From the sequence record OZ035736.1: a stretch of DNA of 40,525 bases, one strand, 5' to 3'. Below the pieces are notes generated by a model that searched no databases, had not been told where the DNA came from, and saw nothing but the letters and a program-made list of their open reading frames with translations. Both the position numbers and the translations under genes were made by a program. Shown in pieces: positions 1 to 40,525 of the stretch. Positions within the stretch are counted from its first letter, which is position 1, and every line of letters begins with the position of its first letter. The DNA comes from Przondovirus NAN33P6.

Positions 1-29
1 TGAGCGCCCAGACTTATAAGGAGTAACAT

Positions 30-287
30 ATGGACCTGATTAAGTTCCTCGAAATGTTAGACACTGAGATGGCTCAGCAGATGCTCATGGACCTGAAGAA
101 TCCCGAGAAGCGAACCCCTCAGCTGTACAACGCCATTGGTAAACTACTGGAGCGGCACAAGTTCCAAATCTCTAAGCTGACCCCTGACGTTAACATCTTG
201 GGCGGTCTTGCTGAAGGTCTGGAGGCTTACAACTCCAAGGTGGGTGCTGATGGTCTGACAGATGACGATAAGTTCACCCTACAGTGA
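30..287 (+). CDS. 18: Terminase small subunit (DNA maturase A), T7 gp18 homolog
   Basis: 85 aa; FLEMLDT.MAQ.ML.DL...PQLYNAI.KLL.RHKFQI.KL.PDV.ILGGLA...GLTDDD..TLQ matches recalled T7 gp18 nearly end to end; AAGGAG RBS at 20-25. Confidence 0.9.
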   Translation: MDLIKFLEMLDTEMAQQMLMDLKNPEKRTPQLYNAIGKLLERHKFQISKLTPDVNILGGLAEGLEAYNSKVGADGLTDDDKFTLQ

Positions 288-335
288 TATACTCAAGGTA
301 CTACTATATGTAGTGCCTTTATGGATGTCATTGCA
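288..335 (+). promoter_or_regulatory. Putative RNase III processing hairpin (R18.5-like)
   Basis: ACTCAAGGTA...TACTATATGTAGTG...CCTTTATGGA; same motif family recurs at about 9470, 10005 and 16590 and resembles the recalled T7 R1.1 substrate (ACUCAAGGUCA...GGCCUUUAUGAUUG). Confidence 0.55.
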
Positions 336-383
336 CTACGCTAGGCGTTCCTACGTGAAATCTGAGAAACAACGGGAGGCATT

Positions 384-830
384 ATGCTGGAGTTCACAAA
401 GAGAATCGTCCCGTATCTTGTGGCTATCATGGTGTTTGCCTTCGGGTGGCACTTGGGGACACAGTCTACGGACGCCAAATGGAAGGAGGAAGTACAGAAT
501 GAGTACGTTAAGAAGCAAACGGCTAGAGCTGAAACTCAGAAAGCGATTGACGCAGTATCGGATAAGTACCAAGCAGACCTTGAGGGGCTGGAGGGCAGCA
601 CTGATAGGATTATTGCTGATTTGCGTAGCGACAATAAGCGGCTGCGCGTCAAAGTCAAACCTACCAGTGTCGCCGCAGGACCAGACGGTCGATGCCTCAT
701 TGATGGTTCCGTCGAACTACACGAAGCAACTGCTCGAAGTCTTATCGCAATAACCCAGAAGGCTGACCTCAAAGAGAAGGCCCTACAGGACACAATTCGT
801 AAGCTGCAAGGGAAAGGAGGTGAACATTGA
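384..830 (+). CDS. 18.5: i-spanin (Rz-like inner membrane spanin), T7 gp18.5 homolog
   Basis: 148 aa; MLEF.....GWHLG..S.DAKWK.EV.NEYVK...[13 protein letters not shown] matches recalled T7 gp18.5; N-terminal TM segment. Confidence 0.9.
499..753 (+). CDS. 18.7: o-spanin (Rz1-like outer membrane lipoprotein), T7 gp18.7 homolog, embedded in +1 frame of gene 18.5
   Basis: Internal ATG at 499 of ORF 262..753; MSTLR...[19 protein letters not shown] matches recalled T7 gp18.7 including lipobox-like ISGC. Confidence 0.85.
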   Translation: MSTLRSKRLELKLRKRLTQYRISTKQTLRGWRAALIGLLLICVATISGCASKSNLPVSPQDQTVDASLMVPSNYTKQLLEVLSQ

Positions 831-2584
831 GTAACTCTCAGCAAGCCAAGAACGCCTTAATCATTGCGCAACTGAAGGGTGACTTTGTCGCCTTTCTCTT
901 CGTGCTCTGGAAGGCCCTGAACCTGCCGGAACCAACCAAGTGTCAAATCGACATGGCCAAGTGTCTGGCAGACCCAAAGAACAAGAAGTTTATCCTTCAG
1001 GCTTTCCGTGGTATCGGGAAGTCGTTCATCACGTGTGCGTTCGTAGTGTGGACCCTATGGCGTGACCCTCAGTTAAAGATACTGATTGTCTCAGCCTCGA
1101 AGGAACGTGCGGACGCTAACTCCATCTTCATCAAGAACATCATCGACTTGTTGCCTTTCCTGAGTGAGCTTAAGCCTCGCCCCGGTCAGCGTGACTCCGT
1201 GATTAGCTTTGATGTAGGCCCTGCCAAGCCTGACCACAGCCCGTCAGTTAAGTCTGTGGGTATTACGGGTCAGCTTACTGGTAGCCGTGCCGATATCATC
1301 ATTGCGGATGACGTGGAGATTCCCGGTAACTCTGCAACCCAAGGTGCCAGAGAGAAACTCTGGACGTTGGTTCAGGAGTTCGCCGCACTGTTGAAACCTC
1401 TGCCGACTAGTCGTGTTATCTATCTGGGTACCCCTCAGACCGAGATGACGCTCTACAAGGAACTTGAGGACAACCGTGGTTACTCCACAATCATCTGGCC
1501 TGCGCAGTATCCTCGCTCCAAAGAGGAAGACCTGTACTATGGCGACCGACTGGCTCCTATGCTCCGTAGTGAGTACGATGAGGACAAAGAGGGTCTCGGT
1601 AGTCAACCTACTGACCCGGTTCGATTTGACTCCATGGACCTTCAGGAACGTGAGGTGGAATACGGCAAGGCTGGCTATACACTTCAGTTCATGCTCAACC
1701 CGAACCTCAGTGACGCCGAGAAGTATCCTCTACGCCTCCGTGACGCTATCGTGTGCGGCCTACAGATGGACAAGGCCCCAATGCACTACCAGTGGCTGCC
1801 GAACCGTCAGAACCGCAATGAGGAGCTTCCTAACGTGGGCATGAAGGGTGACGAGATTTACTCCTTCCATACAGCCTCCAGTAACACTGGTGCGTATCAG
1901 GGTAAGATTCTGGTCATTGACCCCAGTGGTCGCGGTAAGGATGAGACCGGCTGGTGCGTACTGTACACCCTCAACGGTTACATCTACCTGATGGATGCTG
2001 GCGGTACTCGTGGGTACGAAGAGAAGTCCCTTGAGTTCCTCGCTAAGAAGGCTAAACAGTGGCAGGTACAGACTGTGGTCTTCGAGAGCAACTTCGGTGA
2101 CGGCATGTTCGGTAACGTGTTCCAGCCTGTGCTCCTGAAGCATCACCCGGCGCAACTCGAAGAGATTCGTGCTCGTGGTATGAAAGAGGTCCGCATTTGC
2201 GATACCCTTGAGCCTGTGCTGGCAAGTCACCGCTTGGTCATCCGGGATGAGGTCATCCGACAGGACTACCAGACGGCACGTGATGCAGACGGTAAGCACG
2301 CTCTGAAGTACAGCCTGTTCTACCAGATGACCCGTATGAGCCGTGAGAAGGGCGCTGTGGCACACGACGACCGCCTTGATGCGTTAGCATTGGGTGTCGA
2401 GTTCCTACGCTCTACGATGCAGCAGGACGCTGTTAAGATAGAGGCTGAGGTACTTCAGGAGTTCTTGGAGCATCACATGGAGAAGCCCCTGAGTAACATC
2501 TCCCAGTTCAGGGCCACCAGTAGCAACGGCGTGGACATCCGATGGGAAGACGATGGGGATGACACTATGTTCATCGCATGGTGA
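827..2584 (+). CDS. 19: Terminase large subunit (DNA maturase B), T7 gp19 homolog
   Basis: 585 aa; [35 protein letters not shown]...[18 protein letters not shown] nearly identical over long runs to recalled T7 gp19; apparent TTG start at 827 overlapping the gene 18.5 stop (TTGA), GGAGG at 816-820. Confidence 0.95.
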
Positions 2585-2664: not shown

Positions 2665-2687
2665 AATTAGGTAGCACTATAGGGAGA
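2665..2687 (+). promoter_or_regulatory. Phage RNAP promoter (phiOR-like, right end)
   Basis: AATTAGGTAGCACTATAGGGAGA; exact consensus 23-mer, +1 G at 2682. Confidence 0.85.
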
Positions 2688-2828: not shown

Positions 2829-2978
2829 ATGCGCTTACTGTTAACCTTACTGCGCCATAGGACTACTTGGCGGTTTCTGCTGGTACTTGCTGGTGCCCTT
2901 GGGGCTTCACTGGTTACTCAGCAACAACTCGGTGGACTGGAGACTCTCGTGTGCTCTCTACTCACTTGTAGCGATTAG
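2829..2978 (+). CDS. 19.5: T7 gp19.5 homolog (small protein of unknown function)
   Basis: 49 aa, below the ORF-track cutoff; MRLLLTLLRHRTTWRFLLVLAGALGASLVTQQQLGGLETLVCSLLTCSD resembles recalled T7 gp19.5 (ends ...SILTCSD); GGAGG RBS upstream. Confidence 0.75.
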   Translation: MRLLLTLLRHRTTWRFLLVLAGALGASLVTQQQLGGLETLVCSLLTCSD

Positions 2979-3059: not shown

Positions 3060-3440
3060 TTAACCTTAGGTGATTCACTGGGTCTACCTACGGGTCTATG
3101 CACTGACCTGAGGACTACCTGAGGTTACCTTTAAGAATTTTACATAAAGTTCTGAGTGTACATCTCACAGTTTAAACTTTTGGTTATCCCCCCGGTACCC
3201 TCCAGTTCACCCAAAGTAACCATAGGCCACCCCTAAACCTTCGGTTTAACCTTAGGTGGGACTGATGGGAAACCTGAGGTGATACTATATGTTGTGGTGA
3301 GTGGGACCTTGGGTGACTATATGTTGATGTCACTGTGTCCCTATCTGTTGGGCCTCTTTAAGTAACAACCTGAGGTTAGACCTGAGGCATCCACCTTAGG
3401 ACATCCTGAGGTAATACCTGAGACCATATACCTTAGGTTA
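3060..3440 (+). repeat. Array of about 10-12 CCT(G/T)AGG heptamers flanking the presumed genome end and terminal repeat
   Basis: CCTTAGG at 3064, 3250, 3394, 3431; CCTGAGG at 3107, 3118, 3273, 3369, 3381, 3405; variants CCTTCGG 3238, CCTTGGG 3307; positional analogue of the T7 CCTAAAG end repeats. Confidence 0.65.
3163..3350 (+). repeat. Probable direct terminal repeat (collapsed to one copy), with left genome end near 3163
   Basis: TCTCACAG at 3163-3170 resembles the T7 left-end start TCTCACAGTGTACGG; GTGTCCCTATCTGTT at about 3335-3350 resembles the T7 motif near the inner end of its 160-bp repeat; boundaries are estimates. Confidence 0.45.
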
Positions 3441-3506: not shown

Positions 3507-3529
3507 AATTAGGTAGCACTATAGGGAGA
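3507..3529 (+). promoter_or_regulatory. Phage RNAP promoter (phiOL-like, left end)
   Basis: AATTAGGTAGCACTATAGGGAGA exact consensus. Confidence 0.85.
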
Positions 3530-3608: not shown

Positions 3609-3637
3609 TTGACATTCAGATTCCGTTATGAGACATT
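3609..3637 (+). promoter_or_regulatory. Candidate host sigma70 early promoter (A1-like)
   Basis: TTGACA (3609-3614), 17-bp spacer, GACATT; same relative position as T7 A1 (TTGACT...GATACT); weak -10. Confidence 0.4.
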
Positions 3638-3743
3638 AGCAACCGTTGAGACAGACACAACGTTATCAACCACTAGCACACTTCGAGTTACTAGCTGGAT
3701 ACGGAAGGGTCTCAAGTAGCCATCAACCGGCATACGAAAATGG

Positions 3744-3772
3744 TTGACTCAACGATGCACAAGTAGTAACGT
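3744..3772 (+). promoter_or_regulatory. Candidate host sigma70 early promoter (A2-like)
   Basis: TTGACT (3744-3749), 17-bp spacer, TAACGT. Confidence 0.4.
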
Positions 3773-3861
3773 AGTAAGCAAGCAGTAACTAGCAGCACCG
3801 CTCTTTAACAATATGGATTAGTCAAAGCTGATATGTACACCATGACAATAGTGTTTAACTA

Positions 3862-3947: not shown

Positions 3948-4415
3948 ATGATTTACACTAAAGAGCCAGCTAATAAAGTATTCGTATTCGTTACCGCTTA
4001 TCGTGGTCATGAGTCGCTCGAGGTTAACGAGAAGATGCTCAAGGGTCTCATTCGCACCATTAAGACCTATCCGGGTGCATATGGCAACATTCGTGATGAG
4101 CACGTGCAAGGCTGCTTTAAGGAAGATGGCATGCCTGAGGCAACACAAGAACGCACGCTCAAGGTTGAATGTACTGAGAAGCAAGCGGCAGAGCTGACGT
4201 GGTTGGCCTGTAAGACCTACTCGCAGGACGCTGTTCTGGTGGTGAACTCACAGACCCATACAGCCGCGCTATGGTCTATCGAGGATGTAGGCGAGTACCC
4301 ACAGGTCTACCCACGCTTGAAAGAGGTGTCCTTAGGTGGCACGCTGCAACAAGTGGACGCACCAAAGGGTGAATGCTATTCAATCATCGACGGGCAATAT
4401 TGGGAGGTGGTGTAA
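3948..4415 (+). CDS. 0.3: S-adenosylmethionine lyase (T3-type SAMase, anti-restriction), T3 gp0.3-like
   Basis: 155 aa; M.YTKEPA..VF......R.....EVN........RT....PG.YG......GC..E...ATQERT..V.C..KQAA.L...AC...QDAVLV.NSQTHTA.L resembles recalled T3 SAMase; unlike the T7 Ocr DNA mimic. Confidence 0.75.
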   Translation: MIYTKEPANKVFVFVTAYRGHESLEVNEKMLKGLIRTIKTYPGAYGNIRDEHVQGCFKEDGMPEATQERTLKVECTEKQAAELTWLACKTYSQDAVLVVNSQTHTAALWSIEDVGEYPQVYPRLKEVSLGGTLQQVDAPKGECYSIIDGQYWEVV

Positions 4416-4597
4416 TGGTCAAATATGGTCTCACTCAGCAGGAAATACACGAGTACCGCAGCGCCTTTAAGACGGCTTGCGAGTGCACTGCTGGCATACC
4501 TGAAGCAAAATCCGACTGGTTCTGCTACTACATGGCCCAAATGGCCCAGACCTATCGCACACGTAAGGTAATGTATGATAACCCTGTTCGTAATTAG
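4415..4597 (+). CDS. Small early protein, possibly T7 gp0.4-like
   Basis: 60 aa from the ATG overlapping the 0.3 stop (TAATG), GGAGGTGG RBS; MVKYGLTQQ...YMAQMAQ has weak resemblance to recalled T7 gp0.4 (VQYGLTAQ...AMAQ). Confidence 0.45.
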   Translation: MVKYGLTQQEIHEYRSAFKTACECTAGIPEAKSDWFCYYMAQMAQTYRTRKVMYDNPVRN

Positions 4598-4772
4598 TGT
4601 GTACGCCCTGATTGTCCTGTACTTTGTGCGGGACTTTCGTAAGGGTCTCAAGGTGCACAAAGCATCTTTCAGTTACATGAAGTGGGGCTTATTGCCTCGC
4701 TTTACTGTACGGCTACCTAATGGCCGCTTTAAGGCTAACAAAGTGGGGGTATTTTATGTTGCAACGCACTGA
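4575..4772 (+). CDS. Small hydrophobic early protein (hypothetical)
   Basis: 65 aa; N-terminal hydrophobic stretch ITLFVISVYALIVLYFV; in the gene 0.5/0.6 position; start uncertain. Confidence 0.35.
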   Translation: MITLFVISVYALIVLYFVRDFRKGLKVHKASFSYMKWGLLPRFTVRLPNGRFKANKVGVFYVATH

Positions 4773-4950
4773 GATACTGAAGGCACTATCTGAGCGGTAC
4801 CTTGCACCCGAGGGTGTACGAGTCCGGGTAATGGACTACACGGGAAACCCGCTGGCACCTGAGAAGGTAGCTTATCGCATCACCTTTACTTCGCTTGGAA
4901 GAAAGCACAGGGTAACATACTGGCCTAACACTGTAGGCTTCCAATCATAG
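4756..4950 (+). CDS. Small early protein (hypothetical, gene 0.6 position)
   Basis: 64 aa from internal ATG MLQRTEILKAL of ORF 4720..4950; precedes gene 0.7. Confidence 0.35.
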   Translation: MLQRTEILKALSERYLAPEGVRVRVMDYTGNPLAPEKVAYRITFTSLGRKHRVTYWPNTVGFQS

Positions 4951-4988: not shown

Positions 4989-6002
4989 ATGAACTACACC
5001 GATATGCAAGCACGCTTAGACGCCATCCGTAACCTGCCAATCTGTGAACTCGACAAGCGCCAGCCGCTGCTGGTAGCACTCATCGCTGACATTGTGAACT
5101 GTGAGACGTCCGACGGTGACGATACGGACAGCGGTTGGGGTCTGGAATGTCAGGACTATTGGCAAACCCTGAAGATTAAGGCCAAGGACGCTGGGTTTAG
5201 CCTGCTGGGCAACGGTCACTTCAGCGCAGCGTTTAAGCACGAGCTGCTGCCGGGTAGGGTCATTAAGGTTGGCTTTAAGAAAGAGGACTCAGGGGCCGCC
5301 TACGTGGCTTTCTGCCGGATGAACCAAGGCCGGGTAGGGATTCCTAACGTCTATCACGTAGCGCGTCACGCTGGATGCTATACGGTGGTTCTGGATGAGC
5401 TGGAACCATGCAAGAGGCGCGACAACGAGACGCACGAGCATTACGCGGACCTAGCGAATTACTTTGTGGAGAACTCTGGTGCAGAGCTGGGAGATGTTGA
5501 CGGTGCAGAGAAGGAATTACCCTTCGTCGAGACGTGTCAAATGATTCACAAGTTCTTCTACGGGATTGCGTCTTTTGATATGCACAGCGGAAACATCATG
5601 TTCACCAAAGACGGCAAGCCAGTGATTACCGACCCGGTGTCATTCTCAGCGGACCGGGACCGTGAGCCTTTCTCACTGGAACCTGAGGAACTGCTCGCAG
5701 AGATTGAGCAGATAGCACACAATAAGATGATTGAACGTTGTAAGCGCAACAAGGCTAAGCGCGACCCGAACGGGGAGCTGCGCATCGCACGCCGTAAGGC
5801 AAACAAGGAACGTCGGGCACGTCGTAAGGCGCACGCTCGGTGGCGTAAGGAGCAGGAAAAGCGTGATGCCGAACTCTTAAAGTTTGACCTTGCGAAAGTC
5901 GAGGAGCGGGTACTGGCATGGCAGGTGGGACCCGGCCTAGCGATACAGCAAGGAAAGCCACTACCAATCGACAACTACCTTCAGGGTAGACTCATGGGCT
6001 AA
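4989..6002 (+). CDS. 0.7: Ser/Thr protein kinase with host transcription shut-off region, T7 gp0.7 homolog
   Basis: 337 aa; LPICELDKRQ, AGF.LLGNGHFSAA, RVIKVGFKKEDSGAAY.AFCRM.QGR.GIPNVY.V.RHAGCYTVVLD, FDMHSGNIMF, ITDPVSFS match recalled T7 gp0.7; basic K/R-rich C-terminus. Confidence 0.9.
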   Translation: MNYTDMQARLDAIRNLPICELDKRQPLLVALIADIVNCETSDGDDTDSGWGLECQDYWQTLKIKAKDAGFSLLGNGHFSAAFKHELLPGRVIKVGFKKEDSGAAYVAFCRMNQGRVGIPNVYHVARHAGCYTVVLDELEPCKRRDNETHEHYADLANYFVENSGAELGDVDGAEKELPFVETCQMIHKFFYGIASFDMHSGNIMFTKDGKPVITDPVSFSADRDREPFSLEPEELLAEIEQIAHNKMIERCKRNKAKRDPNGELRIARRKANKERRARRKAHARWRKEQEKRDAELLKFDLAKVEERVLAWQVGPGLAIQQGKPLPIDNYLQGRLMG

Positions 6003-8804: not shown

Positions 8805-8827
8805 AATTAGGTAGCACTATAGGGAAC
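8805..8827 (+). promoter_or_regulatory. Phage RNAP promoter variant (upstream of ORF 8893)
   Basis: AATTAGGTAGCACTATAGGGAAC; -17..+4 consensus, +5/+6 differ; followed by hairpin GGAACCTTCG...CGAGGGTTCC at the transcript 5' end. Confidence 0.75.
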
Positions 8828-8892
8828 CTTCGAATGGCCGAGGGTTCCATTACTTAAAGTCTTAACTTAGAGAATACTTAAAGAGGCACATC

Positions 8893-9456
8893 ATGACTTA
8901 CTCAATAGTTGTAACCATCTTGTTAATCGTATTAATCGTCCTGTTCGTAAGGGCCGCCACACGCCTCGCTACCTGCGAGTACGCCCTTGAGAAGCAGGCC
9001 AAGAGTAACGAGGAGTACACAAACATCTTGCATGACAAAGTGTGTCGCCTGTCTGAAGATAAGGCAGCACTCAATAAGCAGGTGCGGTGGCTTGAGTCCA
9101 CGCTTAAGGAAGAAGAGCAGAAGGTGCGCGATGTGAATGAACTCCGAGAGCACCAGCGGGACCGCATGAAGTTCCTCCGCAAGTCACTGAAGGAAGCACA
9201 AGACGAGCTGATGATGGTCTCCGACCTGATTCACGTTAAGTTCACAGCTGTGTTGCCGGACGGTACCCACTCTAAGACGCTCTTTAAGTTAGGACTTGGG
9301 CCTTGTGGTCTGCACGTTAAGTCCCTGCGCTGGACCGAGCTGGATGACCGCTATCTGATAGACCAGCTGTGCACCAACGGTGAGCGCAAGCAGTTCGTCT
9401 ACTACAAGAGCGAAGTAGTAGGCCGCATCGAGTTCCGCCACGGTAAGTTTGAATAA
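8893..9456 (+). CDS. Hypothetical early protein with N-terminal TM helix and coiled-coil (no T7 counterpart recognised)
   Basis: 187 aa; AAGAGG RBS; hydrophobic TILLIVLIVLFV followed by a charged heptad-like region; sits between gene 1 and gene 1.1. Confidence 0.7.
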   Translation: MTYSIVVTILLIVLIVLFVRAATRLATCEYALEKQAKSNEEYTNILHDKVCRLSEDKAALNKQVRWLESTLKEEEQKVRDVNELREHQRDRMKFLRKSLKEAQDELMMVSDLIHVKFTAVLPDGTHSKTLFKLGLGPCGLHVKSLRWTELDDRYLIDQLCTNGERKQFVYYKSEVVGRIEFRHGKFE

Positions 9457-9475
9457 GGTAGCACTATAGGAACAT
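9453..9475 (+). promoter_or_regulatory. Degenerate phage promoter-like element (phi1.1-like)
   Basis: AATAAGGTAGCACTATAGGAACA; keeps the GGTAGCACTATAGG core but diverges at -14 and +3..+6. Confidence 0.45.
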
Positions 9476-9515
9476 ACTCAAGGTCATCGTCTGGTGGCCT
9501 TCATGAATGTCCCTT
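9470..9515 (+). promoter_or_regulatory. Putative RNase III processing hairpin (R1.1-like)
   Basis: ACTCAAGGTCATCGTCTGGTGGCCTTCATGAATG, close to the recalled T7 R1.1 substrate. Confidence 0.6.
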
Positions 9516-9539
9516 ACTATCGCAATCAGGAGTAACATC

Positions 9540-9716: not shown

Positions 9717-9719
9717 CAA

Positions 9720-9986: not shown

Positions 9987-10007
9987 TTAGGTAGCACTAT
10001 AGGCAGA
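9985..10007 (+). promoter_or_regulatory. Phage RNAP promoter variant (phi1.3-like)
   Basis: TGATTAGGTAGCACTATAGGCAG; +3 C differs from consensus. Confidence 0.6.
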
Positions 10008-32126: not shown

Positions 32127-32142
32127 CCATTAAGGAGACAAC

Positions 32143-35100
32143 ATGAGCTACGATAAGTCTAAACCTAGCGATTACGATGGCATCTTCCAGAAGGCAGCAG
32201 ACTCTCATGGGGTCTCCTATGACCTCCTGCGTAAGTTATCGTTTAACGAATCATCCTTCAACCCTAAGGCCGTCTCTAAGACTGGCCCTAAGGGCATCAT
32301 GCAGTTCACCCGCAACACGGCCCGAGCGATGGGCCTTAACGTGACAGACGGTGACGACGATGGGCGCTACAACCCTGAGTTAGCCATTGACGCTGGTGCT
32401 AAGCTGCTTGCGAGCCTCGTTAAGAAGTACAATGGGGATGAGCTGAAAGCAGCCCTAGCGTACAACCAAGGGGAAGGCCCAGCGGGTGCTCCCCAGCTCC
32501 AAGCGTACGACAAGGGAGACTTCGGGTCTATCTCGGAGGAAGGTCGTAACTACATGCGCAAGCTGCTGGATGTGGCCAAGAGTCCGAACTCAGGCGCACT
32601 GGAGGCGTTCGGTGGCATCACCCCAAAGGGTAAAGGGATTCCCGCAGAGGATGCCTTCAAGGGCATCGCTAAGGCTGGAAAGGTTGGTACCGAACTGCCG
32701 GAGTCCCATGGGTTCGACGTTGAAGGTGTAGCGCAGGAAGCGCCCAACACTCCGTACGCTAAGGACTTCTGGGAGAAGACCGGGACGACTCTCGACGAGT
32801 ATAACGCTCGGTCAACCTTCTTCGGGTTCGGGGATGCGGCTGAAGCTCAGATTCAGAACTCCACATTAGGTGTGGCCTTCCGTGCTGCGCGTGCCGACGA
32901 TGGGTATGATGTGTTCAAGGACACGATGACCCCGACTCGCTGGAACTCTTATGTTCCATCCAAGGAAGACTTGCAGAAGCTGCGCGACTCTGGGTTACCT
33001 CCGAGTTACTACGGTGTGGTGACTGGTGGTGACGGCGAGAACTGGGATGCACTCATCAAGCTGGCCAAGGATAACTTCGAGGCTGACCAACGGGCCGCTG
33101 AGGCTGGTACTGGGGCGAAACTCGCTGCTGGTATCGTTGGTGCTGGTGTAGACCCACTAAGCTATGCACCTCTGGTCGGTGTGGCCGGGAAAGGACTCAA
33201 GGTGGTCAATAAGGCCCTGCGAGTAGGCGCACAGGCTGGAGCACTCAGTGTTGCCTCTGAGGGAATCCGTACGTCAGTAGCTGGTGGTGAAGCTCACTAC
33301 GCTGATGCAGCACTTGGCGGGTTACTGTTCGGTGCTGGCATGTCGGCTCTTAGTGACGCTGTGGCCGCTGGTATCCGCAAGGCTCGTGGAGTAGACTCCG
33401 TGAATGAGTTCGCTGGTCCAGCACTCCGCATGGAAGCACGAGAGACTGCCATAAACACTGGGGGTCACGACACCTCGACTCTACCTCCAGAGAACTTCTC
33501 GTTCGAGCAGGGCCACAGAGGTGTTCCGTTCGCCGACCACCCGACCGAAGAGGGCGCAGTGGTTCTGGCTAATGGTTCCATCCTGAGCGATACCAACCCG
33601 CTTAACCCAAGGACTCAACGTGACTTCGCAGAGATTGACCCAGAGCGTGCAGCCCCCGGTATCAGGCTCGGTGGGTTCACTGAGATTGGCCTGAAGACCT
33701 TAGGGTCCAAGGATGCTGGTGTTCGTGCAATCGCTCAGGACCTCGTGCGCTCTCCAACAGGGATGCAATCAGGGTCTAGTGGTAAGTTCGGGGCTACAGC
33801 TTCGGACATCCATGAGCGGCTCCATGCGACTGACCAACGGATGTACAACCAACTGTATGACGCTGTTGACCGCGCCATGAAGGACCCAGAGTTCTCCGTG
33901 GGTGAGCAGAAGATGTCACGCAGAGCCATCCGTCAGGAAGTCTACAAGCGTGCTGCCTTGGCGATTGAGCGCCCAGAGTTACAGGCTGATTTGACCAAAG
34001 GTGAACGTGAGGTGATGGACCTGCTGAAGGAGCACTTCGACACCAAGCGTGAACTGATGGAACAGCCGGGTATCTTCGGTAACGCTAACGCCGTGAGCAT
34101 CTTCCCCGGTAGTCGACACAAGGGTACCTACGTGCCTAACGTGTACGACAGGGGCGCTAAGGAACTGATGATGCAGAAGCTGGGTGGACCTGAAGGGCTC
34201 CAACAGGCAATCGCTCAGAGCTGGCTCACCAGTTACCGAGTGCGTCCTGAGGTCAAGGCACGTGTCGACGAGTACCTTATGGAACTCAACGGCTACAAGT
34301 CGGTAGACCAAGTGACACCTGAGGTGGTCCAGAAGCACGCCATTGACAAGGCTTACGGTATCAGTCACACAGAGGACTTCACAGCGTCCAGCGTCATTGA
34401 CGACAACATCACAGGTCTGGTCGGTATCGAGAACAACTCGTTCCTTGAAGCCCGTAACATGTTCGACAGCGACATCCCGGTCACCTTGCCGGACGGGTCA
34501 ACCTTCAGTGTCAACGACCTGAGGGACTTCGATATGGCACGGATTATCCCAGCGTACGACCGTCGAGTTAACGGTGATATCTCCATCATGGGTGGCAGTG
34601 GGAAGACCACGAAGCAGCTCAAGGACGAAATCATGGCGTTAGACAAGCGGGCCGAACGTAAGGGGCAACTGAAGGGTGAAGTGGAAGCGCTGAAGGACAC
34701 CGTTAAGATTCTCACTGGGCGTGCTCGACGTAACAACGATACAGCCTTTGAGACGGCTATGCGTTCCCTGAATGATCTAGCGTTCTTCGCTAAGAACTTC
34801 TACATGGGTCCGCAGAACCTCACAGAGATTGCTGGGATGTTGGCTAAGGGTAACGTTAAGGCGATGCTACACGGTATCCCAACGTTGCGAGACCTCGCCA
34901 CCAGAACCTCTCCGGTGTCGGGTAGTGAACTTCGTGAACTCCATGGGGCGCTGTTCGGTAAGGAACTCGACCAGTTAATCCGTCCTGGACGTGAGGACAT
35001 CGTACAGCGAATCCGTGAGGCTTCCGATACCAGTGGAGCCATGGCGTCAGTCATTGGTACCATTAAGTTCGGCACTCAGGAGCTGTCAGCACGCTCTCCT

Positions 35101-36108
35101 TGGACCAAGATGTTGAATGGTACAGCCAACTACATTCTGGACACTGCCCGTCAAGGTGTGCTCGGTGATGTGGCTGGTGCGGCCCTAGGCGGTAAGGGTT
35201 CCAAGTTTGGTAAAGAGAACTTCCTCAAAGCTGCCTCTATCAGTCCTGAGCAGTGGAAGGGCATCAAGCAACTCTTTGTCGACCACGCGACTCGTGACGC
35301 TAACGGCCAGTTCACCATCAAGGACAAGAAGGCTTTCAGTCAGGACCCGAGAGCGATGGACCTGTGGCGTCTTGCCGATAAGGTTGCCGACGAGACCATG
35401 CTACGGCCTCACAAGGTATCACAGCAGGATTCCAAGGCGTACGGTGCTGGTGTCAAGATGGCTATGCAGTTCAAGAACTTCACCATCAAGTCACTCAACG
35501 CTAAGTTCATTCGGTCCTTCTATGAGGGCTACAAGAACAACCGCGCTATCGACATGGCATTGACCCACATCCTGTCACTCGGTATAGCCGGGACTTACTA
35601 TGCGATGCAGGCCCACGTGAAGGCTTACGGTCTCCAAGAGTCTCAACGTAAGGACTACCTGAAGAAAGCCCTGAACCCGACCATGCTGGTGTACGCAGCG
35701 TTGACTCGAAGTTCCCACATTGGTGCCCCGCTGTCCATCGTCTCGATGATTGCAGGTGCCGCTGGGTTCCAAGATGCAAACATGCTGCGCTCCACCATCT
35801 TGCCTAAGGAGGAACAGTTCCAGAAGAAAGGCGGGGCGTCCAAAGGTCGGGCTGAGTCGAGTAACCTTGCGGGTAACCTAGGGTCTCAGGTCCCGGCTCT
35901 TGGTTACGTAGGGAACGTCATTGCGACCGCTAAGAACGCCTACGGTGTTGTTACAGCACCCAATAAGCCGACTGAGCGCGACTACATGACTGGCCTGATG
36001 AACTCCACTAAGGAGCTTGTGCCGAACGACCCGCTGACCCAACAGCTCATAATGAAAATCTATGAGGCTAACGGAGTAACCATCAAACAGCAGCCTAAAC
36101 CCAACTAA
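32143..36108 (+). CDS. 16: Internal virion (core) protein D with N-terminal lytic transglycosylase domain, T7 gp16 homolog
   Basis: 1321 aa; PSDYDG.FQKAAD..GVSYDLLRK, TGP.G.MQFT (transglycosylase motif region), KAALAYNQGEG, long conserved central and C-terminal runs (ARSPWTK.LNGT.NY.LD.ARQG, DPLTQQL..KIYEANGV). Confidence 0.95.
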   Translation: MSYDKSKPSDYDGIFQKAADSHGVSYDLLRKLSFNESSFNPKAVSKTGPKGIMQFTRNTARAMGLNVTDGDDDGRYNPELAIDAGAKLLASLVKKYNGDELKAALAYNQGEGPAGAPQLQAYDKGDFGSISEEGRNYMRKLLDVAKSPNSGALEAFGGITPKGKGIPAEDAFKGIAKAGKVGTELPESHGFDVEGVAQEAPNTPYAKDFWEKTGTTLDEYNARSTFFGFGDAAEAQIQNSTLGVAFRAARADDGYDVFKDTMTPTRWNSYVPSKEDLQKLRDSGLPPSYYGVVTGGDGENWDALIKLAKDNFEADQRAAEAGTGAKLAAGIVGAGVDPLSYAPLVGVAGKGLKVVNKALRVGAQAGALSVASEGIRTSVAGGEAHYADAALGGLLFGAGMSALSDAVAAGIRKARGVDSVNEFAGPALRMEARETAINTGGHDTSTLPPENFSFEQGHRGVPFADHPTEEGAVVLANGSILSDTNPLNPRTQRDFAEIDPERAAPGIRLGGFTEIGLKTLGSKDAGVRAIAQDLVRSPTGMQSGSSGKFGATASDIHERLHATDQRMYNQLYDAVDRAMKDPEFSVGEQKMSRRAIRQEVYKRAALAIERPELQADLTKGEREVMDLLKEHFDTKRELMEQPGIFGNANAVSIFPGSRHKGTYVPNVYDRGAKELMMQKLGGPEGLQQAIAQSWLTSYRVRPEVKARVDEYLMELNGYKSVDQVTPEVVQKHAIDKAYGISHTEDFTASSVIDDNITGLVGIENNSFLEARNMFDSDIPVTLPDGSTFSVNDLRDFDMARIIPAYDRRVNGDISIMGGSGKTTKQLKDEIMALDKRAERKGQLKGEVEALKDTVKILTGRARRNNDTAFETAMRSLNDLAFFAKNFYMGPQNLTEIAGMLAKGNVKAMLHGIPTLRDLATRTSPVSGSELRELHGALFGKELDQLIRPGREDIVQRIREASDTSGAMASVIGTIKFGTQELSARSPWTKMLNGTANYILDTARQGVLGDVAGAALGGKGSKFGKENFLKAASISPEQWKGIKQLFVDHATRDANGQFTIKDKKAFSQDPRAMDLWRLADKVADETMLRPHKVSQQDSKAYGAGVKMAMQFKNFTIKSLNAKFIRSFYEGYKNNRAIDMALTHILSLGIAGTYYAMQAHVKAYGLQESQRKDYLKKALNPTMLVYAALTRSSHIGAPLSIVSMIAGAAGFQDANMLRSTILPKEEQFQKKGGASKGRAESSNLAGNLGSQVPALGYVGNVIATAKNAYGVVTAPNKPTERDYMTGLMNSTKELVPNDPLTQQLIMKIYEANGVTIKQQPKPN

Positions 36109-36170: not shown

Positions 36171-38702
36171 ATGGACCAAGAAATTAAAACAGTCATCCAG
36201 TACCCCACAGGGTCCACTGAGTTCGACATCCCGTTCGACTACCTGTCCCGTCGCTTCGTCAGAGTGTCTCTGGTCTCTGAGGATTCCAGAAGACTGCTGA
36301 GTAACATCACGGAGTACCGCTACGTCTCCAAGACCAGAATCAAACTACTGGTTTCTACTGAAGGTTTCGACCGTGTTGAGATTCGTCGGTTTACCTCAGC
36401 CTCTGAGCGAATTGTTGACTTCAATGATGGCTCTGTGCTGCGAGCAACAGACCTTAACGTATCACAGCTACAGTCGGCGCATATTGCGGAAGAAGCCCGT
36501 GACGCAGCCCTGCTGGCCATGCCTCAGGACGACGCAGGTAACCTCGATGCACGCAGTCGCCGTATCGTTAACTTGGCTCCCGGTATTGACGGCACTGACG
36601 CTATCAATAAGAACCAGTTAGATTCAACGCTGGGTGAGGCTGGTGGTATCCTTTCTGATATGAAAGAAGTACAGAAGGAAACCTATGACTACATCGAGAA
36701 GCTCGGTGACGACACTTCGATTGTCCGTGGGGTAACTTGGGTGTACAATCAAGGGTCTGCCGTTGGTGGCGAGACTACTGTACTCATCGATAAACCTACC
36801 CGCACGCTGGCCGTTCCTTATATTGAGATTAATGGTAGCCGCCAAGAGGTTGGGTATCACTTCTCGTTTGATATTGCCACCCAGATGATTACCTTAACGG
36901 AACCACTGGTTACCGGGGACTTCCTGATGGCAATGACCACAGAGTCTAGTGTACCTCTGGAAGACCTTCTGACCAACCCTACTGGTGCCTCGGCTATTGG
37001 TACCTCCGATGGTCGAAACGTTCAGGCAAACATCGACGAGCTTCGCTCCGAGTTAGACTTCCTGAAAGACACGACGGTACTTGACGTTAGACGCTTTGGT
37101 GCTGTTGGTGATGGTATTGCAGATGATTACCCAGCGTTTCAGAAAGCGTGCATAGCCGCTAGTCAACTTGGTGGGGCAATAGTCCACGTACCGACTCCAA
37201 AGGTAAAATGGAAGATTGGATTCCCGGTTTACTTGTTCGACCGCACTTGGGTCCGTGGGACAGGCATCAACTGTATTGTCGAGTTCACTGACCCGCTGTA
37301 TGCTCGCAAGTCCCGCTCTGGGTTCGTCATTGGGTCTGGCTACGAGCAGAACCGCGACAAGGCTATTCAATGTCTTAACGATGGCACTTGGGCCACTACT
37401 GGTTCGGTGGTAGATAGGAACTTCGTTGAGTTGGACCGAGGTCAGTACGTTCGCGACAATCCGAGCAAGGTCCAGTCGAGACTGTGCCGAGTGTCCGGGA
37501 TGTACCTGAAGGCTTCATATCCGAATGGTGCTACCCTGAAGGGTGGTTACGCAGTGTCTGGTGCCAACGCAGTAGACTCAGAGGTATTTGATATCTGGGG
37601 CGAAGGTTGGACTGAGATTATCAACTTCGGGTCTGACGTACCACCAGCTACACCAAGCTGTCACAACCTCCATGCGTACGACATCACGTGTGTTGCACCT
37701 AACGACTACGAGACGTACTACAGTGCAGGATTCATTGCGAACTCTACAAGTTGCTCTATTGGCCGCTTCAAGCAGCTCAGGGCAATAGCTGACGGTTCTC
37801 CTCATGGTTCCTGTGGTTCCACGAACTACACCGAGTTCTGTTCGTTCTATGACATTGATGTGCCCAATCTTGGTCGTACTGCATCTTCTGAGGGTATCCT
37901 CGTGAACAACTCTAAGGGCGCGGTGACTCGTAACATCCGTATCGGGAACGCTAAGACGTGCGTGGCTGAATACTACACCACTGGTGCGGGTATCTTCTAC
38001 GACCGTAACCATCCGAACGTGTTCGACGGTATTCACGCTAACAACTGTGACAACGCGGTAGCTCTCCGCTCCAAGTTCTCAGTTTGGAAGAACGTGACGC
38101 AGACCAACTGTACCTATCACGTCTACTTCGGGACTACCAACGCACAAGCCTGTGTGGTCAAGTTCGTACCGGACACAATCGGTGGTGGTAATAACGTAGA
38201 CATTCTGGACAGGCTCCGCGATAACGTTGTGACTGGCTGGCGTGTGCGCTCGCTCCACATCCGACCCATCGCCTACCTACTGAACGACAAGTCAGTGTTG
38301 CGTAGCTGGGATGCTGGTAAGAACATCAAGGCTGAGAACGGTGTGGGATTCCAGTGGTTATTCCCTGTACCATCTACCATGCGTGCAATCACTCAGGTCA
38401 GCCAATGGTTTACCTTCGAGGTGGGTGCAGCGACGGCCGGGACAGAGGTCAAGGTTCAGGTTCGCCGTATGTCAGCGTACAACGGAGACGCCAACGAGCA
38501 GCCTGTAATCCTCTTTGAGAACAGCCGCAAGGCCTCTCTGGATACCGTACAGGCTACTAACATTGTTGCCAACTCCCCGGGTCTGGTCCTGACGTCCCCT
38601 ACGGATGGACTGGCTAACGCTGTGGATGTCCTCGTGAGTGTTACAGCGCCGACCGTTAACTTCAACATGAAAGAAGCTCGCATCACGTATCTGGGCGACT
38701 AA
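36171..38702 (+). CDS. 17: Tail fibre/tailspike: T7 gp17-like N-terminal adaptor domain fused to a large, non-T7 C-terminal domain with depolymerase-like (pectate-lyase-type beta-helix) features
   Basis: 843 aa versus 553 in T7; first ~150 aa match T7 gp17 (F.IPF.YL.R.FV.V.L, VDF.DGS.LRA.DLNV.Q.Q..H.AEEARD, LDAR.RRIVNLA); downstream begins [22 protein letters not shown], a motif typical of beta-helix glycanase/depolymerase tailspikes. Confidence 0.85.
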
Positions 38703-38715
38703 CTAAGGAGACAGT

Positions 38716-40302
38716 ATGTTAAACAAATTGAATCAACCTAAAGGCTCTACAATCGGTGTGCTCAAGGATGGGCGCACCGTCCAAGAGGCAATCGACGAGC
38801 TGGAGAAGATTAAGACCCGCAACGTTGACCCTGAGCGCTTCCGTGAGACACTGACGTCAAGTGACGATGAGGTATTCGAGAAGCTGTTCGCGTGGTTGGC
38901 TACTCAGTCAGACGTTGTGGGAACCTCAAGTTCTTCCTATATCACAGCCTTACCTCGCATGATTGAGCTTAGCGGTCGTACCTATACGTTGACTAAGCGT
39001 CACGTGCTGGACGGTAACTTTGGTATACAGAACGGTACCATCCTGATGTCCGGTGAGGGTGAGATTATCATGGGCCTCGATGCTGGTACCAAGACTCGTC
39101 GTCACTTCCTTAAGTATGCACATTTTGAGTACATCGGGGAAACAGACCGTAGCACCTCTCTGGTCACCATGGCGCGGTGCTTCAACTCTGTGGTTCTGTT
39201 CTGTAACTTCATAGCTGGTGGCGATGCCGCTCGCAACAGGGCTCCACGTACACGTTACGGCCTGTTCGCAGGGTCCACCAGATGCTGGGGCTTACAGTTA
39301 ATCGGTGGTGAGTATTATGGTGGCGACTGTGCGTTGCGTGTTGGACGCGCTAACGACCACACTGGGTTGACCATTCGTCCCGGTACTGTTCACCATTCTC
39401 GCGTTATCAATATGCTACTATGTAACCCAGCGGGTGCTGAGGTGTCTGGTTGTAACATTGAACACGCAGACAATGGTGCCATCGGCCTAGGGATTACCTC
39501 CGGTACCAATACATCAGGTAACGCAGCCCATGGCGTTCGCATCAATGGTGTGTACTTATACAACAACGGTAACGGCTCCAGCGGCTCAAACGTAGCACCT
39601 GCGAATATTCTCATTGGTAAGGACATTCCGGGCACCGAAGGTTGGGACCGCCCGGGCGAGTTGATTACGTCAAGCCGAAACACCGCGCACAGTATTACTG
39701 TGTCAGAGTGCTACATTGTAAGCCCAAACACAGAGAATGCCTGGCAGGTGAACGCCCTGTACGGTGTGTCCTTCGTGGACAACAAAGTGGGCCTCAAAGG
39801 TGACGCTACGATTCACGGTGTGTACGACGGTACGTGTGCTAACTGCTGGGCTGTTGGAAACCGAGATCAAGGCGGTAAGGTATTCCAGTTCTCCTCTACA
39901 GCAACCAACGCGATTCTGACTACCCGCAAAGGTAAGTGGACTCCGAAGATTATCGGTGAGGGTACGGCAGGTAACACTACACTGAGTGCTTCTGGCGGCG
40001 CATACTCTCTGGATAATGGAATGGTAACCGTATCGTGCTTCGCAGTGGTAGACACTAAGGATCCTAACATGGCTGGGAACCTGAACATCAAACTCCCGGT
40101 AGCCTGTGAGGACCAGCAGCGAGGTGGTAACGGAATTTCTCTGACTAACATCCCCGGCGTATCGAGTCCTAACGGGAGTGTTATAATCATTGGGGATACC
40201 GCTCGAATCATGCTAGGGTCTGCGAGATTGCAGCCCGAGAACATCACAACAGGCACTGCTATCCACTTCTCAGTGTCATACCCAGCCGATGTTAAGGTAT
40301 AA
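38716..40302 (+). CDS. Second tailspike-like protein (putative receptor-binding protein/glycanase) lacking a gp17-type adaptor domain
   Basis: 528 aa; strong RBS AAGGAGACAG; no T7 counterpart between gene 17 and 17.5; Gly/Asn/Thr-rich repetitive segments consistent with a beta-helix; sequence-composition inference only. Confidence 0.6.
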   Translation: MLNKLNQPKGSTIGVLKDGRTVQEAIDELEKIKTRNVDPERFRETLTSSDDEVFEKLFAWLATQSDVVGTSSSSYITALPRMIELSGRTYTLTKRHVLDGNFGIQNGTILMSGEGEIIMGLDAGTKTRRHFLKYAHFEYIGETDRSTSLVTMARCFNSVVLFCNFIAGGDAARNRAPRTRYGLFAGSTRCWGLQLIGGEYYGGDCALRVGRANDHTGLTIRPGTVHHSRVINMLLCNPAGAEVSGCNIEHADNGAIGLGITSGTNTSGNAAHGVRINGVYLYNNGNGSSGSNVAPANILIGKDIPGTEGWDRPGELITSSRNTAHSITVSECYIVSPNTENAWQVNALYGVSFVDNKVGLKGDATIHGVYDGTCANCWAVGNRDQGGKVFQFSSTATNAILTTRKGKWTPKIIGEGTAGNTTLSASGGAYSLDNGMVTVSCFAVVDTKDPNMAGNLNIKLPVACEDQQRGGNGISLTNIPGVSSPNGSVIIIGDTARIMLGSARLQPENITTGTAIHFSVSYPADVKV

Positions 40303-40311
40303 GGAGGTATC

Positions 40312-40521
40312 ATGTTGTCCCTAGACTTCAACAACGAAGTTATCAAGGCGGCTCCCATTGCGGGGGTCGCTGGGGCCGATGGTGTAGCGAGGCTCTTCTG
40401 GGGCCTCTCACTCAACGAGTGGTTCTACGTCGCGGCAATCGCCTACACAGTGGTTCAGATTGGTGCCAAGGTAGTCGATAAAATCATTGATTGGAAGAAA
40501 GCAAACAGAGGTGACTCATGA
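40312..40521 (+). CDS. 17.5: Class II holin, T7 gp17.5 homolog
   Basis: 69 aa; MLSLDFNNE.IKAAPI.G...AD..ARLF.GLSLNEWFYVAAIAYTVVQIGAKVVDK.IDWKKAN nearly identical to recalled T7 gp17.5; stop overlaps an ATG at 40518. Confidence 0.95.
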   Translation: MLSLDFNNEVIKAAPIAGVAGADGVARLFWGLSLNEWFYVAAIAYTVVQIGAKVVDKIIDWKKANRGDS

Positions 40522-40525
40522 GAGA

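What the first reader, a model, noticed from the sequence alone, without database searches (positions are those of the whole stretch)
1..40525. Window is a complete, circularly permuted T7-like phage genome with all genes on one strand
Gene content and order run 18-19.5, genome ends, 0.3-1-1.3-2.5-3.5-4-5-6-8-9-10-11-12-13-16-17-17.5, i.e. a full T7-type gene set rotated so that the packaging genes come first. The holin stop at the window end overlaps an ATG (ATGAGAGA) and the window start carries the gene 18 RBS and start, so the two ends probably abut in a circularised assembly. About 40.5 kb is the expected size once a terminal repeat is collapsed.
Basis: partly seen in the sequence, partly recalled or inferred. 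Interest (0 to 1): 0.5.

Follow-up and report, generated by a model that had tools for sequence, protein, structure and literature searches.

The report
Rotated complete Klebsiella T7-like phage genome
The window is one complete genome of an ordinary T7-like Klebsiella phage (genus Przondovirus), written as a closed circle that starts at the packaging genes with its 180-base terminal repeat present once.

Summary
Confirmed, and ordinary. The window matches hundreds of Klebsiella Przondovirus records (KP32/K11 group, T7 supergroup) along its whole length. The closest, NAN33P2, aligns over 97.6% of the window, with a one-way similarity of 93.4%.

- **Gene set and strand:** 41 of 56 T7 proteins have homologues, all on the + strand and colinear with T7 after rotation. 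Thirteen phage-RNA-polymerase promoters are all on the + strand. No minus-strand ORF tested has any family match.
- **Window ends abut:** the end-to-start join matches internal, unbroken sequence at 97-98.8% over its full 168 nt in all 30 listed records (123 cover at least 80%).
- **True ends:** the virion ends are inside the window. The direct terminal repeat is 3163-3342, present once, and its boundary motifs are conserved with T7 and KpV767. The packaged DNA would be linear, about 40,705 bp, and not biologically permuted.

- The "0.3" gene is a T3-type SAM lyase, not T7 Ocr.
- A second receptor-binding gene (38716-40302) lies between gene 17 and the holin.
- The ATG overlapping the holin stop opens only an 8-codon ORF.

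By the 95% rule this is probably a new species of a crowded genus. Interest is low.

The parts
30..287 (+). Gene 18, terminase small subunit (85 aa)
   Evidence: 72% identical to T7 gp18. Pfam DNA_Packaging_2, 3.1e-17. 98.8% identical to KpV767 terS. RBS AAGGAG at 19-24.
384..830 (+). Gene 18.5, Rz-like i-spanin. The embedded gene 18.7 o-spanin is at 499-753.
   Evidence: T7 gp18.5 59% and gp18.7 56% identical. Pfam Phage_lysis.
827..2584 (+). Gene 19, terminase large subunit (585 aa, TTG start)
   Evidence: 80% identical to T7 gp19. 99.1% identical to KpV767 terL, with the same TTG start after GGAGGTG.
2665..2687 (+). Phage RNAP promoter in the phiOR position
   Evidence: Exact match to the window consensus AATTAGGTAGCACTATAGGGAGA. 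T7 has phiOR between genes 19 and 19.5.
2829..2978 (+). Gene 19.5 (49 aa)
   Evidence: T7 gp19.5 57% identical. KpV767 gp52 98% identical.
3063..3437 (+). Cluster of ACCTKAGG short repeats flanking and inside the terminal repeat. It corresponds in position to the short-repeat arrays at the T7 concatemer junction.
   Evidence: 9 of the 18 window copies lie here, all on +. Chance expectation for the whole window is 3.2. Repeat families D1, D2, D6. The T7 comparison is from my own knowledge.
3163..3342 (.). Direct terminal repeat, single collapsed copy. 3163 is the inferred left end of virion DNA and 3342 the inferred right end.
   Evidence: Aligns end to end with the annotated 180-bp repeat_region of KpV767. 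Boundary motifs are shared with T7. It is unique in the window. DTRs of 180-183 bp are reported for the genus (PMC10438801).
3466..3495 (-). Leftward sigma-70-like promoter (TTGACA-18-TATAGT). No gene lies downstream of it.
   Evidence: 11 of 12 consensus match. The hexamers are conserved in KpV767 and NAN33P2. T7 has a leftward promoter A0 near its left end.
3507..3529 (+). Phage RNAP promoter in the phiOL position
   Evidence: Exact consensus match. T7 phiOL is at 405.
3609..3790 (+). Candidate host-RNAP early promoters (TTGACA at 3609, TTGACT at 3744) upstream of the first early gene
   Evidence: Sequence motifs only. KpV767 annotates a promoter region at the homologous place. Inferred, not tested.
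3948..4415 (+). First early gene: S-adenosylmethionine lyase (T3 gp0.3 type), not T7 Ocr
   Evidence: Pfam S-AdoMet_lyase, 4.5e-37. phrog_2226, 1.7e-48. T7 gp0.3 has no hit.
4415..4950 (+). Three small early genes of unknown function (4415-4597, 4575-4772, 4720-4950)
   Evidence: phrog_5058, phrog_2385 and phrog_16587.
4989..6002 (+). Gene 0.7, protein kinase / host shut-off
   Evidence: T7 gp0.7 50% identical over its full length.
6074..8794 (+). Gene 1, single-subunit RNA polymerase (906 aa)
   Evidence: T7 gp1 73% identical. KpV767 98.3% identical.
8805..12380 (+). Class II early block: T3 1.05-like (8893-9456), 9540-9716, 1.2 dGTPase inhibitor (9720-9986), 1.3 ligase (10087-11145), 1.6, 1.7, 11936-12073, 1.8-like (12060-12185), gene 2 (12151-12315). 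Promoters at 8805, 9452, 9985, 11144 and 12317.
12381..13983 (+). Genes 2.5 (SSB), 3 (endonuclease I) and 3.5 (amidase/lysozyme). There is no homing endonuclease between 3 and 3.5, unlike KpV767.
   Evidence: T7 identities 68%, 81% and 81%. KpV767 gp19 has no hit.
14246..15976 (+). Gene 4, primase-helicase (4A start inferred at 14246; internal 4B-type start at 14450)
   Evidence: T7 gp4A 75% identical. Start candidates.
16070..17049 (+). Genes 4.3, 4.5 (toxin-antitoxin inhibitor family) and 4.7
17066..19180 (+). Gene 5, DNA polymerase
   Evidence: T7 gp5 87% identical.
19199..21504 (+). Genes 5.5, 5.7, 6 (exonuclease, 19689-20594), 6.3-position, 6.5, 6.7 and 7.3. Promoter at 20703.
21528..24207 (+). 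Gene 8 portal (21528-23135) and gene 9 scaffold (23251-24207). Promoters at 23134 and 24206.
   Evidence: T7 identities 80% and 57%. Promoters.
24442..25473 (+). Gene 10A, major capsid protein
   Evidence: T7 gp10A 79% identical.
25455..25751 (+). Predicted 10B extension, reached by a -1 frameshift at GGTTTTC (98 codons, small all-beta domain)
   Evidence: The slippery heptamer is in the same place as in T7, and the -1 frame is open to 25751. The homologous start of KpV767 'hyp39' is ACG here, with no RBS. phrog_7473. AF2 model is all-beta with pLDDT 65.7.
25761..25798 (+). Tphi-like terminator after gene 10
   Evidence: 16-bp stem followed by a T run. -26.8 kcal/mol, z -4.9.
25819..36108 (+). 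Genes 11, 12 (26420-28795), 13, 14, 15 and 16: tail tube and internal core proteins. Promoter at 28822.
   Evidence: T7 identities 61-70%. KpV767 identities 96-100%.
36171..38702 (+). Gene 17 equivalent, RBP1 (843 aa): T7-type N-terminal anchor plus a pectate-lyase-like depolymerase. Promoter at 36107.
   Evidence: Pfam Phage_T7_tail, 3.6e-37. T7 gp17 aligns only over residues 1-156. 97.5% identical to KpV767 gp46, the K57-specific Dep_kpv767 (PMC7693772).
38716..40302 (+). Second receptor-binding protein, RBP2 (528 aa). It has no T7 counterpart.
   Evidence: The N-terminal 35 aa match the N-terminus of KP32gp38 depolymerase, PDB 6tku. PHROG tail spike/fibre families match the N-terminus only. 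96-99% identical in NAN33P2, NAN33P1, PMBT12 and KA1-1. The KpV767 69-aa stub equals its first 67 aa.
40312..40521 (+). Gene 17.5, class II holin (69 aa)
   Evidence: T7 gp17.5 83% identical. Pfam Phage_holin_2_2, 7.3e-33.

Best explanation
The window is the whole genome of a lytic Klebsiella podophage of the genus Przondovirus (Studiervirinae; the KP32/K11 branch of the T7 supergroup). It is written as a closed circle opened 29 nt upstream of gene 18.

Biologically it is a linear, non-permuted DNA of about 40,705 bp. Its left end is at window 3163, and the 180 bp at 3163-3342 are repeated at both ends. The assembly kept one copy of the repeat, as in a replicative concatemer junction.

The inferred life cycle follows T7:
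- Host RNA polymerase transcribes the early genes rightward from promoters around 3600-3800. These genes are the SAM lyase, the kinase and the phage RNA polymerase.
- The phage polymerase then reads 13 promoters of consensus AATTAGGTAGCACTATAGGGAGA, all rightward. It expresses the replication genes and then the virion genes, with a Tphi-type terminator after gene 10.
- Terminase gp18/gp19 cuts concatemers at the repeat boundaries.
- Two tailspikes (RBP1 anchored to the tail, RBP2 docked on RBP1) degrade capsule.

What is shown here: homology, gene order, strand, promoter positions, repeat boundaries and continuity of the junction. What is inferred from T7 and KP32 biology: transcription timing, packaging cuts, the frameshift and the capsule specificities.
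For: - Whole-length megablast matches to Przondovirus records: 255 records cover at least 80% of the first 25 kb. NAN33P2 covers 100% of the rest at 97%.
- One-way similarity to NAN33P2 is 93.4%, with 97.6% of the window aligned.
- 41 of 56 T7 proteins have hits, all on + and colinear.
- KpV767 proteins match at 55-100% identity, most at 85% or more.
- The 13 promoters are all on +, at positions that mirror T7 phiOR, phiOL, 1.1A/B, 1.3, 1.5/1.6, 2.5, 3.8, 6.5, 9, 10, 13 and 17.
- The DTR is single-copy with conserved boundaries.
- The junction is contiguous in relatives: 123 records cover at least 80% of it, and the 30 listed cover it fully.
- Tphi-like terminator.
- No tRNA genes and no Rfam hits, as in this genus (PMC13248640).
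- The literature reports that przondovirus DTRs of 180-183 bp are routinely collapsed or placed mid-contig by assemblers (PMC10438801).
Against: - No reads are available, so the termini and the repeat copy number are inferred from homology, not measured for this phage.
- The exact genome is not in the phage collection searched (best 93.4%), so the junction continuity rests on relatives.
- Host and capsule type are not given.
Confidence: 0.95

Rival explanations
1. The genome is truly circularly permuted in virions (headful packaging, as in P22 or T4), so the rotation reflects biology and not assembly.
For: The only support is that the record can be closed into a circle.
Against: - The terminase genes are 72-80% identical to T7 gp18 and gp19.
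- The 180-bp repeat and both its boundary motifs are conserved with T7 and with KpV767, whose record carries the repeat at both ends.
- Primer walking in ten przondoviruses found fixed 180-183 bp DTRs (PMC10438801).
- The cut point coincides with a database convention.
Confidence: 0.02
2. The window is an incomplete or mis-joined contig, with sequence missing or duplicated between its end and its start.
For: KpV767 and NAN33P2 differ from the window by about 31 nt at exactly this place: the holin 3' end and the spacer.
Against: - The joined 168 nt, including those 31 nt, matches single unbroken stretches inside 123 independent records. The best are 98.8% identical over 168/168.
- There is no end overlap of 8 nt or more.
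- Every T7 essential gene is present and intact.
Confidence: 0.02
3. Some genes are encoded on the minus strand, so 'all genes on one strand' is wrong.
For: - Long minus ORFs exist, up to 301 aa at 24517-25422.
- A strong leftward sigma-70-like promoter lies at 3495-3466.
Against: - The eight longest minus ORFs have no Pfam match. The six longest of them, plus two in the ends region, have no PHROG match.
- All minus ORFs of 100 aa or more lie 72-100% inside homology-supported + genes.
- There is no minus-strand phage promoter with 5 or fewer mismatches.
- No relative examined annotates a minus-strand gene.
- The leftward promoter points into the terminal repeat, where only an unsupported 49-aa ORF exists.
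Confidence: 0.03

Closest known systems
Przondovirus NAN33P2 (OZ035814/OZ035820)
   Same: Same genus and the same gene order. Both RBPs are 99.4% identical. The record is opened at the same offset, 29 nt before gene 18.
   Different: - One-way intergenomic similarity is only 93.4%, below the 95% species line.
- Different alleles or no alignment at 4419-4543, 4769-4974, 16652-17066 (gene 4.7) and 24230-24314.
- The holin 3' end and the spacer also differ.
Klebsiella phage KpV767 (NC_047772, Przondovirus KpV767)
   Same: - Colinear, with most proteins 85-100% identical.
- RBP1 is 97.5% identical to the experimentally K57-specific depolymerase.
- The record has natural ends with the 180-bp DTR at both ends, which fixes the termini here (PMC7693772).
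   Different: - KpV767 has RBP2 truncated to 69 aa, an extra endonuclease between genes 3 and 3.5, and extra small genes (gp02, 05, 21, 27, 30) that are absent here.
- The window has a full-length 528-aa RBP2.
Escherichia phage T7 (NC_001604)
   Same: - Same architecture: a DTR with the same boundary motifs, phiOL/phiOR flanking the ends, an early/middle/late gene order on one strand and single-subunit RNAP.
- Tphi after gene 10 and a GGTTTTC frameshift site at the end of 10A.
- All essential genes are shared.
   Different: - No Ocr; a T3-type SAM lyase sits in its place.
- 13 other T7 genes, non-essential in T7 to my knowledge, have neither a tblastn hit nor a family-level counterpart: 0.4-0.6, 1.1, 1.4, 1.5, 2.8, 3.8, 4.1, 5.3, 5.9, 7 and 7.7. 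Genes 1.2 and 5.5 are matched only at PHROG family level, and a gene occupies the 6.3 position.
- The promoter consensus differs, and the DTR is 180 bp against 160 bp.
- The tail fibre is replaced by two depolymerase tailspikes.
- The 10B extension is 98 codons against 59 counted from the slippery site.
Klebsiella phage KP32 dual-depolymerase system (group A 'KP32viruses', Latka et al. 2019)
   Same: RBP1 has a T7-gp17-type anchor. RBP2 starts with the conserved N-terminal peptide of KP32gp38, PDB 6tku (PMC6872550).
   Different: The enzymatic domains differ from KP32's K3 and K21 enzymes. RBP2's body has no Pfam family, and only a 38% relative outside the genus, in Serratia phage IME250.

Membership tests
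T7 supergroup (Autographivirales / Autotranscriptaviridae, Studiervirinae) | Encodes its own single-subunit RNA polymerase in the early region | tested here: met
   6074-8794 is 73% identical to T7 gp1 over its full length.
T7 supergroup (Autographivirales / Autotranscriptaviridae, Studiervirinae) | Unidirectional, syntenic gene order (early, DNA metabolism, virion, packaging) | tested here: met
   41 T7 homologues are all on + and colinear after rotation. The 13 phage promoters are all on +. No minus ORF is supported.
T7 supergroup (Autographivirales / Autotranscriptaviridae, Studiervirinae) | Linear genome with fixed ends and direct terminal repeats | tested here: inconclusive
   A single copy of a 180-bp element homologous to the KpV767 and T7 DTRs, with conserved boundaries, is present. 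Duplication at physical ends cannot be seen without reads or virion DNA.
Genus Przondovirus | Nucleotide similarity of 70% or more across the genome to members of the genus (ICTV genus criterion, from my own knowledge) | tested here: met
   93.4% to NAN33P2. KpV767 aligns in 87-100%-identical blocks over most of the genome. 457 records fall in the 90-95% band.
Existing Przondovirus species | Intergenomic similarity of 95% or more to a described member | tested here: not met
   The best is 93.4%, one-way, in the INPHARED copy of August 2025. Later or undeposited genomes were not searched.
KP32-type anchor-branched dual RBP system | First RBP with a T7 gp17-like anchor; second RBP with the conserved N-terminal docking peptide | tested here: met
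   Pfam Phage_T7_tail on RBP1 residues 1-154. RBP2 residues 1-35 match KP32gp38 residues 1-35, 2.4e-9. The T4gp10-like branching segment was not tested directly. RBP1 residues 1-331 match the 7xy1 tail fibre.
Circularly permuted (headful-packaged) phage genomes | No fixed termini, with terminal redundancy generated by headful cutting | not testable with these tools
   This needs read-terminus statistics. Homology argues against it: T7-type terminase and conserved DTR boundaries.

The most novel reading that the evidence does not exclude
The phage is a new Przondovirus species (93.4% to its nearest deposited relative). It carries the K57-type depolymerase of KpV767 together with an intact second tailspike, of which KpV767 retains only a 69-aa stub. 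It would then represent the un-decayed dual-specificity ancestor state proposed by Latka et al. for KpV767. It would also display a 98-residue beta-sandwich domain on a fraction of capsid subunits through a T7-type -1 frameshift.
Probability: 0.5. Interest if true: 0.2.

Novelty: new member of a known kind. Interest (0 to 1): 0.08.

Why it matters
It matters mainly for bookkeeping. The record should be re-oriented to start at window 3163, and the 180-bp repeat should be added at the right end to represent the packaged DNA.

The phage is probably a distinct species in a genus of more than 100 species. Its tailspike pair, a K57-type enzyme plus an uncharacterised second enzyme shared with K. oxytoca and K. 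aerogenes phages, could interest phage-therapy or depolymerase work. No open biological question is touched.

Tried and rejected
- **First promoter pattern:** it was mis-spaced and found nothing. A Hamming scan with the repeat seen at 2665 and 3507 replaced it.
- **Rfam and tRNA scans:** nothing found.
- **Minus-strand ORFs:** Pfam on the eight longest, and PHROGs on the six longest plus two in the ends region. Nothing found.
- **Same genome elsewhere:** an exact 50-mer from the gene 4.7 region found 8 IMG/VR contigs of 40.3-41.7 kb, none of matching length. The one locus readable by script was 92.6% identical, so the same genome was not recovered.
- **Literature:** a search for NAN33P2 found no paper. 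The 2026 announcement of 19 przondoviruses does not list a 40,525-bp genome.
- **10B extension:** no Pfam family and no PDB sequence match. The Foldseek hits were all weak, E of 3.5e-3 or worse, to generic beta-sandwich or CBM-like domains. Only 'small all-beta domain' is claimed.
- **Sigma-70 scan:** it gave no more sites than shuffled sequence, so the early promoters are named only by position and motif.

Full report
**What the window is.** Megablast of the two halves of the window against 50,697 phage records finds over a thousand matching records, dominated by Klebsiella phages. 255 records cover at least 80% of the first 25 kb, mostly at 90-95% identity. Przondovirus NAN33P2 covers 100% of the last 15.5 kb at 97%. 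A script-level blastn gives 97.6% of the window aligned to NAN33P2 and a one-way identity-weighted similarity of 93.4%. The taxonomy is Caudoviricetes; Autographivirales; Autotranscriptaviridae; Studiervirinae; Przondovirus. This is the KP32/K11 group of T7-like Klebsiella podophages.

**Gene content, order and strand.** I fetched T7, translated its 56 annotated proteins and ran tblastn on the window. 41 proteins hit, every hit is on the + strand, and the order is exactly T7's after rotation: 18, 18.5/18.7, 19 and 19.5 at 30-2978, then 0.7, 1, 1.3, 1.6-2, 2.5, 3, 3.5, 4, 4.2-4.7, 5, 5.7, 6, 6.5-7.3, 8-16, 17 (N-terminus only) and 17.5 at 4989-40521.

- T7 proteins with neither a tblastn hit nor a family-level counterpart are 0.3-0.6, 1.1, 1.4, 1.5, 2.8, 3.8, 4.1, 5.3, 5.9, 7 and 7.7. 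These are dispensable in T7 (own knowledge).
- Genes 1.2 and 5.5 are recognised at PHROG family level, and a gene of another family occupies the 6.3 position.
- Proteins of KpV767 map at 55-100% identity, most at 85% or more, and their implied starts fall on start codons preceded by Shine-Dalgarno motifs.
- Plus-strand genes cover 92% of the window.

For the minus strand:
- The eight longest ORFs (152-301 aa) have no Pfam match. The six longest of them, plus two ORFs in the ends region, have no PHROG match.
- All 28 minus ORFs of 100 aa or more lie 72-100% inside supported + genes.
- A Hamming scan with the 23-mer AATTAGGTAGCACTATAGGGAGA finds 13 sites with 4 or fewer mismatches, all on + and none on - at 5 or fewer. 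Shuffled sequence gives 0.8 sites at 7 or fewer mismatches.
- The promoter positions are 2665, 3507, 8805, 9452, 9985, 11144, 12317, 13985, 20703, 23134, 24206, 28822 and 36107. They mirror T7 phiOR, phiOL, phi1.1A/B, 1.3, 1.5/1.6, 2.5, 3.8, 6.5, 9, 10, 13 and 17.
- A 16-bp-stem terminator with a T run follows gene 10 at 25761-25798, like T7 Tphi.

No tRNA and no Rfam family is present. The 'one strand' claim stands.

**The window ends.**
- The holin stop is TGA at 40519-40521 and the ATG at 40518-40520 overlaps it.
- AAGGAG lies at 19-24 and the gene 18 ATG at 30.
- Joined, the ATG reads MRDERPDL-stop, so it is not a gene.
- A 168-nt end+start join matches single uninterrupted internal stretches of other phage records. 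123 records cover at least 80% of it, and all 30 listed cover it fully at 97.0-98.8%. The best hits, 168/168 at 98.8%, include Kp_Pokalde_002, IME531, phiTH1 and FOPMU1.
- KpV767 and NAN33P2 carry a shorter variant of the holin 3' end and spacer. This is why they do not align over the last 36 nt; it is allelic variation, not a gap.

The ends therefore abut exactly. NAN33P2's record is opened at the same offset, and other records of the genus are labelled circular and start at the gene 18 ATG. The rotation is a deposit or assembly convention.

**The true termini.** KpV767's record has natural ends with an annotated 180-bp repeat at both ends.
- Window 13-3342 aligns to KpV767 37068-40395, its right end. 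Window 3163-3371 aligns to KpV767 1-209, its left end.
- The overlap, 3163-3342, is the terminal repeat. It is present once in the window.
- The left boundary reads ...GAGTGTACA|TCTCACAGTTTA and the right reads ...CACTGTGTCCCT|ATCTGTT. T7 has ...GAGTGACTA|TCTCACAGTGTA and ...CTCTGTGTCCCT|ATCTGTT.
- Nine of the window's 18 ACCTKAGG octamers cluster in 3063-3437, all on +, against 3.2 expected for the whole window. This recalls the short-repeat arrays at the T7 concatemer junction (own knowledge).

The packaged DNA is therefore predicted to be linear, 40,525 + 180 = 40,705 bp, starting at 3163. Elek et al. showed by primer walking that przondovirus DTRs are 180-183 bp. They also showed that short-read assemblers delete one copy and open the contig mid-genome (PMC10438801). 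'Circularly permuted' is thus true of the record, not of the virion.

1. The gene in the 0.3 position (3948-4415) is an S-adenosylmethionine lyase of the T3 type (Pfam PF23780, 4.5e-37; phrog_2226). T7 Ocr has no hit.
2. Between gene 17 and the holin there is a second receptor-binding gene at 38716-40302 (528 aa).

**The two receptor-binding proteins.**
- RBP1 (36171-38702, 843 aa) has the T7 gp17 N-terminal anchor (Pfam, 3.6e-37) and a weak, below-threshold pectate-lyase-like match. It is 97.5% identical to KpV767 gp46, which was shown experimentally to be a K57-specific beta-galactosidase depolymerase (PMC7693772).
- RBP2's first 35 residues match the N-terminus of KP32gp38, PDB 6tku. This is the conserved docking peptide of the anchor-branched system described by Latka et al. 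(PMC6872550).
- The body of RBP2 is shared at 96-99% with NAN33P2, NAN33P1, PMBT12 (K. oxytoca host) and KA1-1 (K. aerogenes host). It has a 38% relative in Serratia phage IME250.
- KpV767's 69-aa 'tail fiber' stub equals RBP2 residues 1-67 at 98.5%. The window therefore carries the intact form of a gene that decayed in KpV767.

**Verdict.** The observation and the interpretation are both correct, and the object is an ordinary member of a heavily sampled genus. By the 95% criterion it is probably a separate species, within the limits of the August 2025 collection. Interest is low.

Noticed in passing
window 25455-25751 (+): The ORF after the capsid gene lies in the -1 frame of gene 10A and is open from the slippery heptamer GGTTTTC, which sits in the same place as in T7. 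Where KpV767 annotates a separate 'hypothetical protein' start, the window has ACG and no RBS. It is therefore most likely a 10B-type frameshift extension of 98 residues. A single-sequence AF2 model is all-beta (pLDDT 65.7), with only weak beta-sandwich/CBM-like fold matches.
   Followed up: partly
window 3466-3495 (-): There is a near-consensus leftward sigma-70 promoter (TTGACA-18-TATAGT, 11/12) about 125-150 bp right of the terminal repeat. It points into the repeat, where there is no supported gene. The hexamers are conserved in KpV767 and NAN33P2, and T7 has a leftward promoter A0 in a comparable place. Its function is unknown.
   Followed up: partly
window 38716-40302 vs L001 (KpV767) 36659-36868: KpV767's 69-aa 'tail fiber' is the first 67 residues of the window's full-length RBP2, at 98.5% identity. 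The window, NAN33P2 and PMBT12 keep the intact gene. This fits the 'retrograde evolution' proposed for KpV767 in PMC6872550.
   Followed up: partly
window 827-829: The terminase large subunit gene starts with TTG, 7 nt after GGAGGTG, where T7 has ATG. KpV767 has the same TTG at the homologous start.
   Followed up: no
window 13525-13531 vs L001 10702-11139: KpV767 carries an extra endonuclease gene between genes 3 and 3.5 that is absent from the window. No homologue of T7's HNH genes 3.8 or 7.7, or of its endonuclease 2.8, was detected either, so no homing endonuclease was found in the window.
   Followed up: no
window 40503-40525 + 1-12: About 31 nt at the holin 3' end and the spacer to gene 18 are present in the window and many relatives but absent from KpV767 and NAN33P2. 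This changes the holin C-terminus from ...KKANKE to ...KKANRGDS and leaves a 33-nt spacer containing an 8-codon ORF.
   Followed up: partly
window 16652-17066, 4419-4543, 4769-4974: These segments do not align to the closest genome, NAN33P2, but do have homologues in other przondoviruses. For example, gene 4.7 is 77% identical to KpV767 gp25 at protein level. This points to mosaic exchange of small early and middle genes.
   Followed up: no
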